Positions 39,065-63,518 of a stretch of DNA of 64,000 nt are shown in pieces. Source of the stretch: Escherichia coli (GTDB taxonomy: Bacteria > Pseudomonadota > Gammaproteobacteria > Enterobacterales > Enterobacteriaceae); the NCBI RefSeq assembly GCF_016026235.1, contig NZ_CP065613.1. One strand, written 5' to 3'. Made by a program: the position numbers and the translations under genes. Positions within the stretch are counted from its first letter, which is position 1. The number at the start of each line of letters is the position of its first letter. The notes under the pieces are model-generated. The model was given only the letters and a program-made list of their open reading frames with translations, was not told the origin of the DNA and made no database searches.

Positions 39065-40729
39065 TTAAAACGTTTCCCAGTTCTCCCCGCTATCTGCCAC
39101 TGCCATTTTACGCGGCGTAGCTGGCGTCACGTTTTTTACCACAGCCGATGTTTCACGCTGCTGTTGCTGCTGTTGCTGAATCCGGAACACTGCCACAGCT
39201 TCGGTCAGGCGACTGGCCTGCTCTTCCAGCGCGGCGGCGGCAGCGGCAGATTCTTCCACCAGCGCAGCGTTCTGTTGAGTTACCCGGTCCATCTCAGCAA
39301 CCGCTAAGCCAACCTGATCGATACCACGGCTCTGCTCATCAGAAGCAGAAGCAATTTCGCCCATAATGTCCGTCACGCGGGTCACGGCACTGACAATCTC
39401 CGCCATTGTTTCCCCTGCGCTTTCGACCAGCGTAGAGCCAACATCTACTTTCCCCACCGAGTCTTCAATCAGGCTTTTAATTTCACGAGCCGCCTGAGCG
39501 CTGCGCTGGGCCAGATTACGCACTTCACCCGCGACCACCGCAAAACCGCGCCCTTGCTCACCCGCGCGCGCTGCTTCAACCGCCGCGTTCAAAGCCAGAA
39601 TATTGGTCTGGAAGGCAATGCCGTCAATTACGCTGATAATATCGGCGATTTTCTGCGAACTGGTGGAGATATCGCGCATAGTCTGCACCACGTTATCTAC
39701 CACTTTGCCGCCGCGTTGCGCCGTTTCAGAAGCACTTAACGCCAGGTGGCTGGCCTGGCGCGCATTTTCGGCGTTCTGTTTCACCGTTGCGGTCAGTTGC
39801 TCCATGCTGGCTGCCGTCTCTTCCAGCGAAGCGGCCTGTTGCTCGGTGCGCGAAGAGAGATCGTTATTGCCGGTAGCGATTTCGCTGGCACCGCTATAGA
39901 TGGCATTGGCCCCGTTGCGCACATCACCGACGGTACGCATCAGCTCTCCCTGCATATGGCGCAAACTCTCTGCCAGTTGCCCCATCTCATTAGAGCCATC
40001 CACCTCAATCGGTTTCACCAGATCGCCGCCTGCAATATGACGAATGCTGTCAATCAGGCGATTCATTGGCGCTACCAACGAGGCTTTAATACCGAACCAG
40101 ACGGCGAAGATGACTGCCAGTACGACGATCATCACGCCCACCAGAATCCACATCGCCTGGCTGTAGGAGGCATTATTATCGCTGACGGCGATATCATAGA
40201 GCCGATCGTTTTGCTCCATGTAAGCCACATACTGCTTCTCGAAACCGTCCTGATATCCCTGGGTCGGCTGATCAAAGAACTCGTTGATTTTGCCTGCACC
40301 TAACAGTTGGATCAGCTCCGCCAGCGCATTGTGATAAATATCGTAATTACGTTTGATCTCTGCCGCTGCGGCGGTGCTCTGACGCGGGTCACGCGGCAAC
40401 GCTTCGTAATCCGCCCAGTTTTTTTCCGCCTGTTTCAGCGAAATACTGGCACTCTCCATCAGCTCAGCAACGGTTGAACCGCTACCAATATTATTCTGAT
40501 CCATCATGTAGCGGATACCCGCGCGGTTGAGGGTGTTACGCGTCTGCAACAACGCGACCCAGCTGCCATTCAGCGTGGATTGCTGCTGGCGAATGGTTTG
40601 TAAAACAGTGAAATTTTCTTTGTCATTCTTTAAGGCATTAAAGAACAGACCGCCTGATGTCAGTTGTAAAAGGCCAAAAACGGCCAAAACCAGCAGTAAG
40701 CTGGTCACAATTTTGATACGTTTTAACAT
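39065..40729 (-). CDS. tsr: methyl-accepting chemotaxis protein I (serine sensor) Tsr
   Basis: 554 aa, C-terminal NWETF pentapeptide, 7-residue Gln tract before RETSAVV. Confidence 0.9.
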
Positions 40730-40874
40730 GGTTTCTCTTTCCTGTGGACCGATGCAAGATTTTCGGCCAGGAAAGGAAAAACTTTATGAATATCCCGCGG
40801 AGATTACGCCGAGTAATTTTATTCACACTCTGAATTTAAAAAGCCATTATTTACATAAATTACTCACAATATAA

Positions 40875-40896
40875 ATATGTGATATGAATCACATAT
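40875..40896. promoter_or_regulatory. CRP binding site upstream of btsT
   Basis: aaatatgtgatatgaatcacatattt contains TGTGA-N6-TCACA in a perfect palindrome, about 210 bp upstream of the btsT start. Confidence 0.6.
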
Positions 40897-41105
40897 TTAT
40901 CGTCACTTAAACGACGCCTTTGCCGCTCAACCGCAAAACTGACCGCTTACATCCCTAAAATAACCACTCAGTTATTTACCTTACTTTACGCGCGCGTAAC
41001 TCTGGCAACATCACTACAGGATAGCGGTCAATTTACCTCCTCAAACGCAACGCAAACCTAGAACGGCTTCGGCCAACTATTAATCAATACATGCCAGGTT
41101 TTACT

Positions 41106-43256
41106 ATGGATACTAAAAAGATATTCAAGCACATACCCTGGGTGATTCTCGGAATCATCGGTGCATTCTGCCTCGCGGTAGTTGCATTACGTCGGGGGGA
41201 GCACGTCAGCGCCCTGTGGATCGTGGTCGCCTCTGTGTCGGTGTATCTGGTGGCGTATCGCTACTACAGTCTGTACATCGCCCAGAAGGTGATGAAACTC
41301 GACCCCACGCGCGCGACGCCTGCGGTTATTAACAACGACGGTCTGAACTACGTTCCGACCAACCGTTACGTGTTGTTTGGTCACCACTTCGCCGCTATCG
41401 CCGGTGCTGGTCCGCTGGTGGGTCCGGTTCTCGCCGCGCAGATGGGCTACCTGCCTGGCACGCTGTGGCTGCTGGCGGGGGTCGTGCTGGCCGGTGCGGT
41501 TCAGGACTTTATGGTGCTGTTTATCTCCTCTCGCCGTAATGGCGCATCTCTTGGTGAGATGATCAAAGAAGAGATGGGACCAGTACCGGGGACTATCGCG
41601 CTGTTTGGCTGTTTCTTAATCATGATCATCATCCTCGCCGTCCTGGCGCTGATTGTGGTTAAAGCCCTGGCCGAAAGTCCGTGGGGTGTCTTCACCGTTT
41701 GCTCAACCGTACCGATTGCGCTGTTTATGGGTATCTACATGCGCTTTATCCGTCCGGGGCGTGTGGGTGAAGTCTCTGTCATTGGTATCGTGCTGCTGGT
41801 TGCCTCTATCTACTTCGGTGGCGTGATTGCTCACGATCCGTACTGGGGTCCGGCACTGACCTTTAAAGACACCACCATTACCTTCGCGCTGATTGGCTAT
41901 GCGTTTGTTTCCGCACTGCTGCCGGTGTGGCTGATCCTCGCACCGCGCGACTATCTGGCAACCTTCCTGAAAATCGGCGTTATCGTCGGCCTGGCGCTGG
42001 GTATCGTGGTGCTGAACCCGGAACTGAAAATGCCTGCGATGACCCAGTACATTGACGGTACTGGCCCGCTGTGGAAAGGCGCTCTGTTCCCGTTCCTGTT
42101 CATCACCATCGCCTGTGGTGCGGTATCTGGCTTCCACGCGCTGATCTCTTCCGGTACGACGCCGAAACTGCTGGCTAACGAAACCGACGCGCGTTTCATT
42201 GGCTACGGCGCAATGCTGATGGAGTCCTTCGTGGCGATTATGGCGCTGGTTGCTGCGTCCATCATCGAACCGGGTCTTTACTTCGCGATGAATACCCCGC
42301 CTGCGGGCCTTGGCATCACCATGCCTAACCTGCATGAAATGGGTGGCGAGAACGCGCCGATCATCATGGCGCAGCTGAAAGACGTTACCGCACACGCGGC
42401 GGCGACCGTCAGCTCCTGGGGCTTCGTGATTTCGCCAGAGCAGATCCTGCAAACCGCGAAAGACATTGGTGAGCCTTCTGTCCTGAACCGTGCAGGTGGT
42501 GCGCCGACGCTGGCGGTAGGTATCGCTCATGTGTTCCACAAAGTGCTGCCGATGGCTGACATGGGCTTCTGGTATCACTTCGGTATTCTGTTCGAAGCCC
42601 TGTTCATCCTGACCGCGCTGGATGCGGGTACCCGTTCTGGCCGCTTTATGCTGCAAGACCTGCTGGGTAACTTCATCCCGTTCCTGAAAAAAACCGACTC
42701 TCTGGTTGCCGGTATCATCGGTACTGCGGGCTGTGTGGGTCTGTGGGGCTACCTGCTGTATCAGGGCGTGGTCGATCCGCTGGGCGGCGTTAAGAGCCTG
42801 TGGCCGCTGTTCGGTATCTCCAACCAGATGCTGGCAGCCGTAGCGCTGGTACTGGGCACCGTTGTGCTGATTAAGATGAAGCGCACCCAATACATCTGGG
42901 TAACTGTTGTTCCGGCTGTATGGCTGCTTATCTGCACCACTTGGGCGCTGGGTCTGAAACTGTTCAGCACCAACCCGCAGATGGAAGGCTTCTTCTACAT
43001 GGCAAGCCAGTACAAAGAGAAGATTGCTAACGGTACTGACCTGACGGCGCAGCAGATTGCCAACATGAACCACATCGTTGTGAACAACTACACCAACGCG
43101 GGCCTGAGTATTCTGTTCCTGATTGTGGTGTACAGCATCATCTTCTACGGTTTCAAAACCTGGCTTGCGGTGCGTAACAGCGACAAACGTACTGACAAAG
43201 AAACACCGTACGTTCCAATCCCGGAAGGCGGCGTGAAGATCTCTTCGCACCACTAA
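41106..43256 (+). CDS. btsT: CstA-family pyruvate/H+ symporter BtsT (YjiY)
   Basis: 716 aa from MDTKKIFKHIPWVILGIIGAF. Confidence 0.9.
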   Translation: MDTKKIFKHIPWVILGIIGAFCLAVVALRRGEHVSALWIVVASVSVYLVAYRYYSLYIAQKVMKLDPTRATPAVINNDGLNYVPTNRYVLFGHHFAAIAGAGPLVGPVLAAQMGYLPGTLWLLAGVVLAGAVQDFMVLFISSRRNGASLGEMIKEEMGPVPGTIALFGCFLIMIIILAVLALIVVKALAESPWGVFTVCSTVPIALFMGIYMRFIRPGRVGEVSVIGIVLLVASIYFGGVIAHDPYWGPALTFKDTTITFALIGYAFVSALLPVWLILAPRDYLATFLKIGVIVGLALGIVVLNPELKMPAMTQYIDGTGPLWKGALFPFLFITIACGAVSGFHALISSGTTPKLLANETDARFIGYGAMLMESFVAIMALVAASIIEPGLYFAMNTPPAGLGITMPNLHEMGGENAPIIMAQLKDVTAHAAATVSSWGFVISPEQILQTAKDIGEPSVLNRAGGAPTLAVGIAHVFHKVLPMADMGFWYHFGILFEALFILTALDAGTRSGRFMLQDLLGNFIPFLKKTDSLVAGIIGTAGCVGLWGYLLYQGVVDPLGGVKSLWPLFGISNQMLAAVALVLGTVVLIKMKRTQYIWVTVVPAVWLLICTTWALGLKLFSTNPQMEGFFYMASQYKEKIANGTDLTAQQIANMNHIVVNNYTNAGLSILFLIVVYSIIFYGFKTWLAVRNSDKRTDKETPYVPIPEGGVKISSHH

Positions 43257-44487: not shown

Positions 44488-44518
44488 GGCCGCCATGGGG
44501 CGGCCTGAATTATTTTTT
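44488..44518. terminator. convergent stem-loop between yjiA and brnA
   Basis: ggccgcc-atgg-ggcggcc followed by tgaattatttttt on the plus strand. Confidence 0.4.
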
Positions 44519-44812
44519 GTTCTGATCGCGCAGCATCGCTTCACGTAAAATTGCGTTCAGGCGAGTTTGATAGCCTTTACCTGGTCGCTTCAACCATTCC
44601 ATCACATCAGCATCAATACGCACCGAAGCCTGAGTTTTCAATGGCCGATAAAACTTACCGCGTTCGGCGTTAGACCATTGCTCATCGCTGGAAGGTGGGA
44701 TATCACTGTAATCAATATCTTCGTCGGATTTATTCGCCAGCGCCTTCAGTTCGGCCTCATGCTGCACATCGAGTGTAGAGGAGGTCCCTCGTTTATGTTT
44801 AACCATGCTCAT
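44510..44812 (-). CDS. BrnA-like antitoxin (ribbon-helix-helix, COG3514-type)
   Basis: about 100 aa from MSMVKHKRG...; C-terminal SVRIDADVMEWLKRPGKGYQTRLNAILREAM is typical of BrnA; start 8 bp after the BrnT stop. Confidence 0.7.
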   Translation of the reverse strand: MSMVKHKRGTSSTLDVQHEAELKALANKSDEDIDYSDIPPSSDEQWSNAERGKFYRPLKTQASVRIDADVMEWLKRPGKGYQTRLNAILREAMLRDQNKK

Positions 44813-45086
44813 AGCGATTCCTCTCTTTACGATCTGCTTTTCGTGCACTGATGATTCGAATAATTTCATTTCCGCTTTCGAAACGGATGGTATGCGCAAC
44901 CAGAATAACCACGATGCCGTAAACCAGGCCGATTGTCTGCCAGCGATACTCACCGTTTTCTATGCGTTCTTGCTGTGACAAATGTTGTGGATCATCAAAC
45001 AATAACACCGCATCTTCAAAGCGGATGCCATGTTTCACCCGATTACTTTTGGCCTTGTTTTCATCCCATTCAAACTCCATTGGCAT
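44799..45086 (-). CDS. BrnT-like toxin (DUF497 / COG2929 ribonuclease type)
   Basis: MPMEFEWDENKAKSNRVKHGIRFEDAVLLFDDP...IRIISARKADRKERNRYE; DUF497 hallmarks FEWDxxKAxxNxxKHG and IRIISARKA; start codon uncertain (45080-45113). Confidence 0.7.
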   Translation of the reverse strand: MPMEFEWDENKAKSNRVKHGIRFEDAVLLFDDPQHLSQQERIENGEYRWQTIGLVYGIVVILVAHTIRFESGNEIIRIISARKADRKERNRYEHG

Positions 45087-45284
45087 AATTGCCATCCCTA
45101 ATTGTATATACAAAAATGTATCTACAATTATTCTGCAATTATAGCGTTGATGTTGGAAATAGCATCACGTTTCGAATAATCAACCATAAAATTGACAATG
45201 AGTAAGTTGGACTTGATTCATCCAATAGAATTTCTCGCCTGACATGGCACACTAAACACCTCGCTGTCGGGTAATGACTCCAAC

Positions 45285-45787
45285 TTACTGATAGTGTTTT
45301 ATGTTCAGATAATGCCCGATGACCTTGTCATGCAGCTCCACCGATTTTGAGAACGACAGTGACTTCCGTCCCAGCCTTGCCAGATGTTGTCTCAGATTCA
45401 GATTATGTCGCTCAATGCGCTGAGTGTAACGCTTGCTGATAACGTGCAGCTTTCCCTTCAGGCGTGATTCATACAGCGGCCAGCCATCCGTCATCTATAC
45501 TACGACCTCAAAGGCCGACAGCAGGCTCAGAAGACGCTCCAGTGTGGCCAGAGTGCGTTCACCGAAGACGTGGCCACAACCGTCCTCCGTATCCTGTCAT
45601 ACGCGTAAAACAGCCAGCGCTGACGTGATTTAGCACCGACGTAGCCCCAATGTTCGTCCATTTCAGCGCAGACAATCACATCACTGCCCGGTTGTATGCG
45701 CGAGGTTACCGACTGCGGCCTGAGTTTTTTAAGTGACGTAAAACCGTGTTGAGGCCAACGCCCATAATGCGTGCACTGGCGCGACAT
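45285..45787 (-). pseudogene. insB: IS1 insB, frameshifted and interrupted
   Basis: split into 86-aa and 69-aa ORF fragments; alignment to copy 1 shows a 1-bp deletion (cgtggccacaaccg vs cgtgcgcaacaaccg) and a stop (ctatactac). Confidence 0.7.
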
Positions 45788-45981
45788 CCGACGCCATTCA
45801 TGGCCATATCAATGATTTTCTGGTGCGTACCGGGCTGAGAGGCGGTGTAAGTGAACTGCAGTTGCCATGTTTTACGGCAATGAGAGCAGAGATAGCGCTG
45901 ATGTCCGGCAGTGCTTTTGCCGTTACGCACCACGCCTTCAGTAGCGGAGCAGGAAGCACATCTGATGGAAATGGAAGCCAC
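45706..45981 (-). CDS. insA: IS1 InsA (variant)
   Basis: 91 aa [37 protein letters not shown]. Confidence 0.8.
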
Positions 45982-46295
45982 GCAAGCACCTTAAAATCAC
46001 CATCATACACTAAATCAGTAAGTTGGCAGCATTACCAAATTTTAATTACACTTAAGGTGTATATTTTCTATGCAAGCCATCAATTAAAGAGGTGTAATGT
46101 TCTGATGACTATTTGTAATCGTTATACATTCTGACCTGGAGTCAGAAGGTATTTCTCTGTCTGTGTATTCGCAGGCAGTGTGGTTGATTACATGAAATTC
46201 AGTACATTTGTCCTTCTCGCCTGCCTTTCGTCATTACCGACGGTATTGAATTTCGTTTTCCCCATTGGGGTTCTCCGGACAAGGAGTTGTTTGTT

Positions 46296-47528
46296 ATGCC
46301 ACGTTTTTTTGCCCGCCATGCCGCCACGCTGTTTTTCCCGATGGCGTTGATTTTGTATGACTTTGCTGCGTATCTGTCGACGGACCTGATCCAGCCAGGG
46401 ATCATTAATGTGGTCCGTGATTTTAATGCCGATGTCAGTCTGGCCCCGGCTGCCGTCAGTCTCTATCTCGCTGGAGGCATGGCATTGCAGTGGCTGCTGG
46501 GGCCGCTTTCCGACAGGGTTGGCCGCAGGCCGGTGCTGATTACCGGGGCGCTAATATTTACCCTTGCCTGCGCTGCGACAATGTTCACAACGTCTATGAC
46601 ACAGTTTCTTATCGCGCGTGCAATTCAGGGCACCAGTATCTGTTTTATTGCCACCGTTGGTTATGTCACGGTGCAGGAGGCGTTCGGACAGACAAAAGGG
46701 ATCAAGTTGATGGCGATTATCACCTCCATCGTACTGATTGCGCCGATTATTGGCCCGCTTTCCGGCGCAGCTCTGATGCACTTTGTGCACTGGAAAGTCC
46801 TTTTTGCCATCATTGCGGTTATGGGTTTTATCTCATTTGTTGGCTTACTGCTGGCGATGCCAGAGACGGTGAAGCGCGGCGCGGTTCCATTTAGCGCCAA
46901 AAGCGTCTTGCGCGATTTTCGTAATGTCTTTTGCAATCGGCTGTTCCTCTTTGGCGCAGCAACCATCTCTTTAAGCTATATCCCCATGATGAGTTGGGTG
47001 GCTGTCTCGCCGGTGATCCTGATCGACGCGGGCGGCTTAACAACTTCGCAGTTCGCCTGGACACAGGTTCCGGTGTTCGGCGCGGTGATTGTCGCGAATG
47101 CCATCGTGGCGCGTTTCGTTAAAGATCCGACCGAACCGCGCTTTATCTGGCGTGCCGTACCCCTTCAACTGGTTGGCCTCGCGCTGTTGATTATCGGCAA
47201 TCTGCTGTCACCGCACGTCTGGCTGTGGTCGGTGCTGGGCACCAGTCTGTATGCTTTCGGGATTGGTTTGATTTTCCCGACCTTATTCCGCTTTACGCTG
47301 TTTTCCAATAACTTACCGAAAGGGACCGTCTCCGCATCGCTGAATATGGTGATCCTGATGGTGATGTCTGTCTCGGTCGAAATCGGCCGCTGGCTGTGGT
47401 TTAACAGCGGTCGCTTGCCGTTTCATCTGTTAGCCGTTGTGGCAGGCGTTATCGTCGTTTTCACCCTGGCCGGATTGCTTAATCGCGTGCGCCAACATCA
47501 GGCTGCCGAGCTGGCGGAGGAGCGGTGA
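46296..47528 (+). CDS. mdtM: MFS multidrug efflux transporter MdtM
   Basis: 410 aa from [27 protein letters not shown]. Confidence 0.9.
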
Positions 47529-63179: not shown

Positions 63180-63518
63180 GATTTTTCCTCTTTCACATAG
63201 TGGGTTCCACAGCAAAGAGACGCGGAACCCTGGAGTTGTTTAGGTATCCGGATGAACAACCAGACCGCAGCCGTGGCGTTGCATCGGATGAGATGGCGTA
63301 TAAGTTCTACCTTTTGGTAATACATGTCAACCCGAATTCTAAAATTGGTTAACCAAATCACAAGAATTTCACTCTCCTGGTTGTTGCTGCAAATTGCAGC
63401 AAAGGGTAATCGATGGTTATTGATCAGAGGATGTGACATTCATCGCAACAATGGTTGACCAATTTACATAACATGTCGCCCAAAATAACAACGGTTCAAC
63501 CAGGTAAGATAAAACGTT

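What the first reader, a model, noticed from the sequence alone, without database searches (positions are those of the whole stretch)
40875..40896. Near-perfect palindromic CRP site upstream of btsT
aaatatgtgatatgaatcacatattt contains both CRP half-sites (TGTGA and TCACA) with 6-bp spacing in a perfect 26-bp palindrome, about 210 bp upstream of btsT and in the tsr-btsT intergenic region. This fits the carbon-starvation control expected for a CstA-family transporter.
Basis: partly seen in the sequence, partly recalled or inferred. Interest (0 to 1): 0.2.

Follow-up and report, generated by a model that had tools for sequence, protein, structure and literature searches.

The report
Known CRP site of btsT promoter
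The palindrome is a real binding site for the global sugar-starvation regulator CRP in front of the E. coli pyruvate transporter gene btsT; both the site and the gene's CRP dependence are already published, so the finding is correct but ordinary.

Summary
TGTGATATGAATCACA (40878-40893) is the only exact TGTGA-N6-TCACA in the 64-kb window (expected 0.02). It lies in the 376-bp spacer between tsr (minus strand) and btsT/yjiY (plus strand, ATG at 41106). It is not a perfect 26-bp palindrome: two 13-nt arms flank a non-palindromic ATGA centre.

The interpretation also holds, and it is already known. A published genomic-SELEX table lists exactly this 16-mer, as its reverse complement, as the cAMP-CRP target in the yjiY/tsr spacer. 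Published reporter work states that a crp deletion "completely abolished" btsT promoter activity.

What I add:
- **Conservation.** A CRP-like site is present upstream of btsT in all 78 orthologous loci examined across Enterobacterales. It has at most one mismatch in 74 of 77 real zones, against 0 of 77 control zones inside the gene.
- **Fixed spacing.** The site starts 44 bp upstream of the first of three BtsR (YehT) boxes in 68 of 77 loci, within 1 bp in the rest.
- **It travels with btsT.** The upstream neighbour varies (tsr, hpaC or others), so tsr is not the target.
- **Predicted position.** The site centre lies about 132 bp upstream of a predicted start. That suggests co-activation with BtsR, not a simple class I or II promoter. 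This step is inferred.

Novelty: already known. Interest is low.

The parts
40875..40896 (.). 22-bp CRP site ATATGTGATATGAATCACATAT, centre 40885.5
   Evidence: Read. It matches the CRP consensus at 17 of 22 positions (hand alignment). It contains the published SELEX 16-mer.
40878..40893 (.). Core 16-mer TGTGATATGAATCACA (TGTGA-N6-TCACA)
   Evidence: Only exact match in the window, 0.02 expected. It is the reverse complement of 'TGTGATTCATATCACA', listed for the yjiY/tsr spacer in Shimada 2011 Table S3.
40871..40900 (.). Extended inverted repeat: 13-nt arms 40871-40883 and 40888-40900 around a non-palindromic centre ATGA
   Evidence: repeat I1, 100% complementary. As single-stranded DNA it would fold at -10.2 kcal/mol, z = -4.5. 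The arms beyond the CRP core are not conserved in other species.
40922..40929 (+). BtsR-like box 0, GCCGCTCA (one mismatch to ACCRCTYA)
   Evidence: A box with at most 1 mismatch lies 43-45 bp after the CRP core start in 77 of 78 orthologous loci, at exactly 44 bp in 68. It falls inside the Jung-lab 'yjiY YehT bs' oligonucleotide.
40942..40970 (+). BtsR (YehT) binding repeats ACCGCTTA-N13-ACCACTCA (box 1 at 40942-40949, box 2 at 40963-40970)
   Evidence: Exact match to the motif ACC[G/A]CT[C/T]A-N13-repeat. The motif definition comes from my recollection of Kraxenberger 2012; the sequence is contained in the published YehT-binding oligonucleotide.
41003..41011 (+). Candidate extended -10 element TGGCAACAT (inferred, not mapped)
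   Evidence: A TGnnAnnnT element sits 121-125 bp after the CRP core start in 73 of 78 loci, most often TGGCAAGAT. The generic promoter scan did not call it. No start-site data were available.
41106..43256 (+). btsT (yjiY), pyruvate/H+ symporter, CstA family
   Evidence: ORF. RefSeq annotation. Pfam CstA E 5e-242.
39065..40729 (-). tsr, serine chemoreceptor, divergent neighbour
   Evidence: ORF. Annotation. Pfam TarH, HAMP and MCPsignal.
40760..40786 (-). tsr sigma-28 promoter-like element TAAAGTTT-N11-GCCGAAAA
   Evidence: Read against the sigma-28 consensus, which I recalled from memory. A published RpoF-holoenzyme SELEX peak lies in the yjiY/tsr spacer 112 bp from the CRP site coordinate.
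40791..40922 (.). Segment specific to the K-12-type spacer; contains the CRP site. Other E. coli lineages have different DNA or an island here.
   Evidence: Local blastn, alignment A1 and annotated loci.

Best explanation
This is the cAMP-CRP binding site of the btsT (yjiY) promoter. When preferred sugars run out and cAMP rises, a CRP dimer binds TGTGATATGAATCACA. Together with the pyruvate-responsive LytTR regulator BtsR, bound to three direct repeats starting 44, 64 and 85 bp downstream, it switches on transcription of the pyruvate/H+ symporter gene btsT. Transcription probably reads on into yjiX and yjiA.

Shown in the literature: CRP-cAMP selects this sequence in vitro, and btsT promoter activity is lost in a crp deletion.

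Shown here: the site and its distance to the BtsR boxes are conserved across Enterobacterales, whatever the upstream neighbour.

Inferred: the promoter uses a conserved extended -10 element (TGGCAACAT, 41003-41011). That would put the CRP centre near -132 and the BtsR boxes near -92, -72 and -51. CRP would then act as an upstream co-activator (class III-like), by DNA bending and/or contact with the RNA polymerase alpha C-terminal domain, and not as a class I or II activator.
For: Sequence:
- Exact core, unique in the window.
- 17 of 22 matches to the CRP consensus (hand alignment).

Published binding:
- The identical 16-mer is listed as the genomic-SELEX CRP target in the yjiY/tsr spacer (PMC3105977 Table S3).

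Published function:
- A crp deletion abolishes PbtsT-lux (PMC7730263).
- cAMP-CRP dependence and catabolite repression are cited in PMC5431176, PMC5936718 and PMC10653868.

Conservation:
- All 78 orthologous loci with enough upstream DNA have a CRP-like 16-mer 195-365 bp before the ATG. Mismatch counts are 0 in 29 loci, 1 in 46 and 2 in 3.
- At most 1 mismatch occurs in 74 of 77 real zones. Controls gave 0 of 77 inside the gene, 0 of 74 further upstream and 7 of 1540 shuffles.
- Flanking columns carry almost no information, while the half-sites are nearly invariant.

Fixed geometry:
- Box 0 lies at +44 in 68 of 77 loci and box 1 at +64 in 64 of 78.
- The candidate -10 lies at +121 to +125 in 73 of 78.

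Linkage to btsT:
- The upstream neighbour is divergent tsr in 22 loci, co-directional hpaC in 15 and other genes in 37 of 74.
- In E. coli with the hpa island, the site sits directly after the hpaC terminator, 11 kb from tsr.
Against: - I could not read the primary paper (Kraxenberger 2012 is not held). I therefore cannot confirm that this exact site was mutated or footprinted.
- SELEX shows binding within the spacer and the best motif under the peak. It is not a footprint.
- I found no in-vivo ChIP record. One ChIP-exo paper's held supplementary files do not mention the gene, and the other's are not held.
- The start site is predicted only. A centre near -132 is unusually far for direct CRP activation.
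- Loss of expression in a crp deletion could be partly indirect, for example through effects on BtsS/BtsR or on pyruvate excretion.
Confidence: 0.93

Rival explanations
1. The CRP site serves the divergent gene tsr, or both genes, and links chemoreceptor expression directly to cAMP.
For: In the K-12-type spacer the site lies between the two genes. It is about 133 bp from the predicted tsr sigma-28 start, roughly as far as from the predicted btsT start. In 22 of 74 loci tsr is the divergent neighbour, and among Salmonella and Citrobacter the distance from the site to the tsr ORF is similar at 141-142 bp.
Against: In 52 of 74 loci tsr is not the adjacent upstream gene, yet the site persists at a fixed distance from the BtsR boxes. 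In hpa-island E. coli the site is 11 kb from tsr, with co-directional genes and a terminator in between. Homology on the tsr side between E. coli haplotypes stops at 40790, just past the sigma-28 -35 element, so the conserved tsr promoter does not include the site. By established knowledge, tsr belongs to the FliA regulon, whose CRP dependence runs through flhDC.
Confidence: 0.08
2. The palindrome works as a DNA or RNA hairpin (terminator, cruciform or recombination site), and the CRP match is incidental.
For: The 13-nt arms fold at -10.2 kcal/mol as DNA, z = -4.5. The site sits at the edge of a structurally polymorphic segment, with a breakpoint near 40922.
Against: - The terminator scan finds nothing in 40700-41150.
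- The stem is A+T-rich and has no trailing T-run.
- In other species only the CRP half-sites and the btsT-side flank are conserved, not the extended arms, so selection acts on the protein-binding motif and not on pairing.
- Rfam gives only a sub-threshold chance hit.
- The SELEX and crp-deletion data explain the element fully.
Confidence: 0.02
3. The site is bound mainly by another CRP/FNR-family regulator, such as FNR, and not by CRP.
For: CRP/FNR-family sites share the inverted-repeat layout. The inner bases GAT-N4-ATC fit both proteins.
Against: The site reads GTGAT...ATCAC. By established knowledge, the G/C at these positions discriminates CRP (TGTGA) from FNR (TTGAT). cAMP-CRP selected this sequence in vitro, and a crp deletion abolishes expression.
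Confidence: 0.02

Closest known systems
The published cAMP-CRP target in the E. coli K-12 yjiY/tsr spacer (Shimada et al. 2011 genomic SELEX; CRP dependence of yjiY/btsT in Kraxenberger et al. 2012 and Gasperotti et al. 2020)
   Same: It is the same element. The 16-mer is identical. The K-12 MG1655 spacer is 99.2% identical to the window, with an identical site.
   Different: Nothing in the site itself. The window comes from another E. coli strain (100% match to strain 720632), whose spacer has a 1-bp deletion and two base substitutions relative to K-12, all outside the site.
Co-dependent (class III-like) CRP promoters with CRP upstream of a specific activator, such as rhaSR (CRP about -111.5 upstream of RhaR), uhpT (CRP about -103.5 upstream of UhpA) and araBAD (CRP about -93.5). 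Positions are from my own knowledge, not checked here.
   Same: CRP lies upstream of an array of sites for a signal-specific activator, and both regulators are needed for expression.
   Different: The partner is a LytTR-type response regulator with three direct repeats. The inferred CRP position, near -132, is further upstream than in those examples. The start site is not verified.
cstA promoter CRP site (paralogous CstA-family pyruvate transporter)
   Same: The paralogous transporter is also activated by cAMP-CRP and repressed translationally by CsrA. Its CRP site is also unusually far upstream, described as about 80 nt from the start (PMC7730263).
   Different: cstA has no BtsR control and has Fis as repressor. 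Its site in the SELEX table, TGTTAACTCGATCACT, is much weaker than the perfect btsT core.

Membership tests
CRP (CAP) binding site | Inverted pentamers TGTGA and TCACA separated by 6 bp within a 22-bp roughly symmetric site | tested here: met
   Exact match at 40878-40893, unique in the window, 0.02 expected. 17 of 22 positions match the consensus.
CRP (CAP) binding site | cAMP-CRP binds the DNA | not testable with these tools
The literature look-up shows the identical 16-mer listed as the motif under a genomic-SELEX CRP peak in the yjiY/tsr spacer (PMC3105977 Table S3). I found no footprint or ChIP record.
CRP (CAP) binding site | Expression of the adjacent gene depends on crp/cAMP | not testable with these tools
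   Published: PbtsT-lux is abolished in a crp deletion (PMC7730263). Catabolite repression is cited. Mutation of this specific site was not verified.
CRP (CAP) binding site | Located in non-coding DNA upstream of the regulated promoter | tested here: met
   It lies in the 376-bp tsr-btsT spacer, 210 bp before the btsT ATG.
CRP (CAP) binding site | Conserved in orthologous promoters (phylogenetic footprint) | tested here: met
   All 78 loci have a site with at most 2 mismatches. At most 1 mismatch occurs in 74 of 77 real zones, against 0 of 77 and 0 of 74 control zones.
Class I or class II CRP-dependent promoter | Site centred at -41.5 (class II) or at -61.5, -71.5, -82.5 or -92.5 (class I) from the start, with CRP sufficient as activator | tested here: not met
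   With the conserved candidate -10 at 41006-41011 the centre falls near -132, and three BtsR boxes lie between the site and the promoter. BtsR is required according to the literature. Caveat: the start site is predicted, not mapped.
Intrinsic terminator | G+C-rich stem-loop followed by a T-run | tested here: not met
   No terminator-like site in 40700-41150. The stem is A+T-rich and has no T-run.
Known structured RNA (Rfam) | Match at or above a family's gathering score | tested here: not met
   Only Pistol at 20.4 bits against a gathering score of 34.5, E 0.2.

The most novel reading that the evidence does not exclude
CRP and BtsR form a stereospecific upstream activation complex. The CRP core starts exactly 44 bp before the first of three BtsR boxes in 68 of 77 species, within 1 bp in the rest, while the DNA between them is free to vary. 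The same geometry was kept when different DNA, such as the hpa island, was placed upstream. This would mean CRP acts from about -132 through a fixed-phase contact with BtsR or with RNA polymerase alpha-CTD looped over the BtsR array. That arrangement has not been described for a LytTR regulator, as far as I could find.
Probability: 0.35. Interest if true: 0.35.

Novelty: already known. Interest (0 to 1): 0.12.

Why it matters
The site explains why the high-affinity pyruvate scavenging system of E. coli needs two signals: external pyruvate, sensed through BtsS/BtsR, and the absence of better carbon sources, sensed through cAMP-CRP. That logic is already in the literature, so the finding adds no new biology.

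The modest additions are these. The CRP site and its spacing to the BtsR boxes are invariant across Enterobacterales. They also survive repeated rearrangement of the upstream DNA. This marks the btsT promoter as a clean natural model for how CRP co-operates with a LytTR-type activator.

Tried and rejected
- **Primary paper.** I tried to read Kraxenberger et al. 2012 by PMC id and by DOI, and Behr et al. 2014. None is held.
- **Literature search for the sequence.** A full-text search for the literal 16-mer found nothing in main texts. It turned up only in a supplementary table, as the reverse complement.
- **In-vivo binding.** One CRP ChIP-exo paper's held supplementary files do not mention yjiY, btsT or tsr, and the other paper's are not held. 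So I have no in-vivo binding evidence either way.
- **Generic promoter scan.** The sigma-70 scan found only two weak, chance-level hits, neither at the conserved element. I therefore inferred the -10 from cross-species conservation.
- **Origin of the K-12-type segment.** I tested whether 40791-40922 derives from the hpa island or its CRP-regulated promoters. Local blastn found no similarity beyond the CRP core itself, so I rejected that idea.
- **Terminator or hairpin, Rfam RNA and FNR-site readings.** All rejected (and sequence reading).
- **First spacing estimate.** I initially thought the hpa-type E. coli differed by 1 bp in spacing. That was a counting slip, corrected by the script: both types have 64 bp from the core start to box 1.

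Full report
**1. What is in the sequence**

Window 40875-40896 reads ATATGTGATATGAATCACATAT. The core TGTGATATGAATCACA (40878-40893) has both CRP pentamers with the canonical 6-bp spacer. It is the only exact TGTGA-N6-TCACA in the 64-kb window, where dinucleotide shuffles give 0.02. With up to two mismatches the window holds 27 matches against 26.5 expected, so only the exact site is remarkable.

The repeat finder shows two perfectly complementary 13-nt arms (40871-40883 and 40888-40900) around a 4-nt centre, ATGA. The 22-mer matches the textbook consensus AAATGTGATCTAGATCACATTT at 17 of 22 positions (my alignment).

**2. Genomic context**

The DNA is E. coli. A 451-bp stretch around the site is 100% identical to strain 720632 and is annotated tsr / btsT. 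The K-12 MG1655 spacer is 99.2% identical, with an identical site.

- tsr occupies 39065-40729 on the minus strand.
- btsT (formerly yjiY) starts at 41106 on the plus strand.
- Pfam confirms CstA for BtsT and TarH, HAMP and MCPsignal for Tsr.

The site ends 210 bp before the btsT ATG, and its centre lies about 220 bp upstream.

Downstream of the site lie the BtsR (YehT) direct repeats ACCGCTTA-N13-ACCACTCA (40942-40970). A further related box, GCCGCTCA, lies at 40922-40929.

On the tsr side, the minus strand carries TAAAGTTT-N11-GCCGAAAA (40786-40760), a good sigma-28 promoter. A published RpoF-holoenzyme SELEX peak in this spacer lies 112 bp from the published CRP-site coordinate, which fits this layout.

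**3. The site is already known**

- **Binding.** Shimada et al. [quoted passage not shown] This is the exact reverse complement of the window's 16-mer.
- **Function.** Gasperotti et al. [quoted passage not shown]
- **Citations.** Three further papers cite Kraxenberger et al. 2012 for cAMP-CRP dependence and catabolite repression of yjiY/btsT.

I could not open the 2012 paper. I therefore cannot say whether the site itself was mutated there. I also found no ChIP record.

**4. Comparative evidence obtained here**

A scan of one genome per species returned 80 loci encoding BtsT orthologues at 90-100% identity. They span Escherichia, Salmonella, Citrobacter, Klebsiella, Raoultella, Kluyvera, Kosakonia, Enterobacter, Lelliottia, Pantoea, Erwinia, Rahnella and others.

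All 78 loci with enough upstream DNA carry a CRP-like 16-mer 195-365 bp before the ATG. Mismatch counts are 0 in 29 loci, 1 in 46 and 2 in 3. The commonest form is TGTGATCTCAATCACA.

| Zone searched | Loci or shuffles with at most 1 mismatch |
|---|---|
| Real upstream zone | 74 of 77 |
| Equal-sized zone inside btsT | 0 of 77 |
| Equal-sized zone further upstream | 0 of 74 |
| Shuffled upstream zones | 7 of 1540 |

In an ungapped stack anchored on the site, the half-sites and the btsT-side flank are nearly invariant, while the surrounding columns carry almost no information.

The geometry is fixed relative to the start of the CRP core:

| Element | Offset from CRP core start | Loci |
|---|---|---|
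| BtsR-like box 0 | +44 | 68 of 77 |
| BtsR-like box 1 | +64 | 64 of 78 |
| BtsR-like box 2 | +84 or +85 | 66 of 78 |
| TGnnAnnnT (candidate extended -10) | +121 to +125 | 73 of 78 |

Box offsets are and the -10 candidate. In the window the -10 candidate is TGGCAACAT at 41003-41011.

**5. The site belongs to btsT, not tsr**

The gene upstream of the site differs among loci: divergent tsr in 22, co-directional hpaC in 15 and something else in 37 of 74.

Within E. coli there are several spacer types:

- **K-12 type.** This is the window's type; its diagnostic 66-mer is found in 2043 of 5426 complete genomes.
- **Alternative type.** Its diagnostic 65-mer is found in 2223 genomes. In these genomes an 11.3-kb hpa island, an amino-acid deaminase gene or a small ORF lies between tsr and btsT.

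In the alternative type the CRP site (TGTGATCTCAATCACA) sits immediately after the terminator of the upstream co-directional gene. Its spacing to the BtsR boxes is the same.

The segment 40791-40922 is specific to the K-12 type. Its only similarity to the alternative type is the CRP core. On the tsr side, homology between the types stops just past the sigma-28 -35 element.

**6. Mechanism**

Shown by others: CRP-cAMP binds this spacer, and crp is required for btsT promoter activity.

Shown here: the site, three BtsR-like boxes and a -10-like element form one conserved module with fixed spacing.

Inferred: if the conserved TGGCAACAT is an extended -10, the start lies near 41018. The CRP centre would then be near -132 and the boxes near -92, -72 and -51.

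That position excludes simple class I or II activation. It suggests that CRP co-activates from upstream of the BtsR array, through DNA bending and/or alpha-CTD contact. This resembles co-dependent promoters such as rhaSR or uhpT, a comparison from my own knowledge. An indirect component of the crp-deletion effect cannot be excluded.

**7. Rivals**

- **A role at tsr** is unlikely, for the reasons in section 5.
- **A terminator or hairpin role** is unlikely. No terminator is called, the stem is A+T-rich with no T-run, and other species conserve the protein-binding bases but not the pairing.
- **A known RNA** is excluded: Rfam gives only a sub-threshold chance hit.
- **An FNR site** is excluded by the discriminating G/C positions and by the CRP data.

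**8. Verdict**

The element is already known, so interest is low.

The one open point worth an experiment is the strictly conserved CRP-BtsR spacing, which hints at a stereospecific co-activation complex.

Noticed in passing
window 40791-40922; L004 8588-20012; L002; L086: The DNA between tsr and the btsT CRP site is structurally polymorphic in E. coli. Four types were seen: the K-12 type with no insert, an 11.3-kb hpa (4-hydroxyphenylacetate) island, an amino-acid deaminase gene, and a small hypothetical ORF in O157. All keep the CRP half-sites and the spacing to the BtsR boxes. E. albertii (L007) shares the K-12-type flank, so the polymorphism looks old.
   Followed up: partly
L001 1664-1790 (absent from the window, between about 41075 and 41095): A 127-bp insertion sits in the btsT 5' leader, between the predicted promoter and the ATG, in about 2063 of 5426 E. 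coli genomes. Loci L005, L007, L017 and L077 also have a longer leader. By my memory of the consensus it resembles an ERIC/IRU repeat. It could affect CsrA control or mRNA stability.
   Followed up: partly
window 40922-40929: A third BtsR-like box lies 20 bp upstream of the two published YehT repeats. It reads GCCGCTCA here and ACCGCTYA in most species, and it is present in 77 of 78 orthologous loci. The Jung-lab SPR oligonucleotide spans it, so it may be known to them. In K-12-type E. coli its first base is degenerate.
   Followed up: partly
window 40760-40786 (minus strand): A sigma-28 promoter-like element for tsr, TAAAGTTT-N11-GCCGAAAA. It is consistent with a published RpoF SELEX peak in this spacer.
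   Followed up: partly
window 63432-63447: TGTGACATTCATCGCA, one mismatch to the CRP core, lies upstream of uxuA. Its reverse complement is the published gntP/uxuAB CRP site in Shimada 2011 Table S3.
   Followed up: partly
window 46574-46589: Another one-mismatch CRP-like 16-mer, TGCGACAATGTTCACA. By coordinate transfer from the annotated identical strain it falls inside the yjiK coding region. It is probably chance.
   Followed up: no
window about 44500-46200 (L087 23811-25504): Next to yjiA this strain carries a brnT/brnA toxin-antitoxin pair and IS1 remnants. K-12 has the mrr-hsd-mcr restriction cluster at this position.
   Followed up: no
window 39065-40729: Tsr here is 554 aa, against 551 aa annotated in K-12 MG1655. 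This is a small length variant of the chemoreceptor.
   Followed up: no
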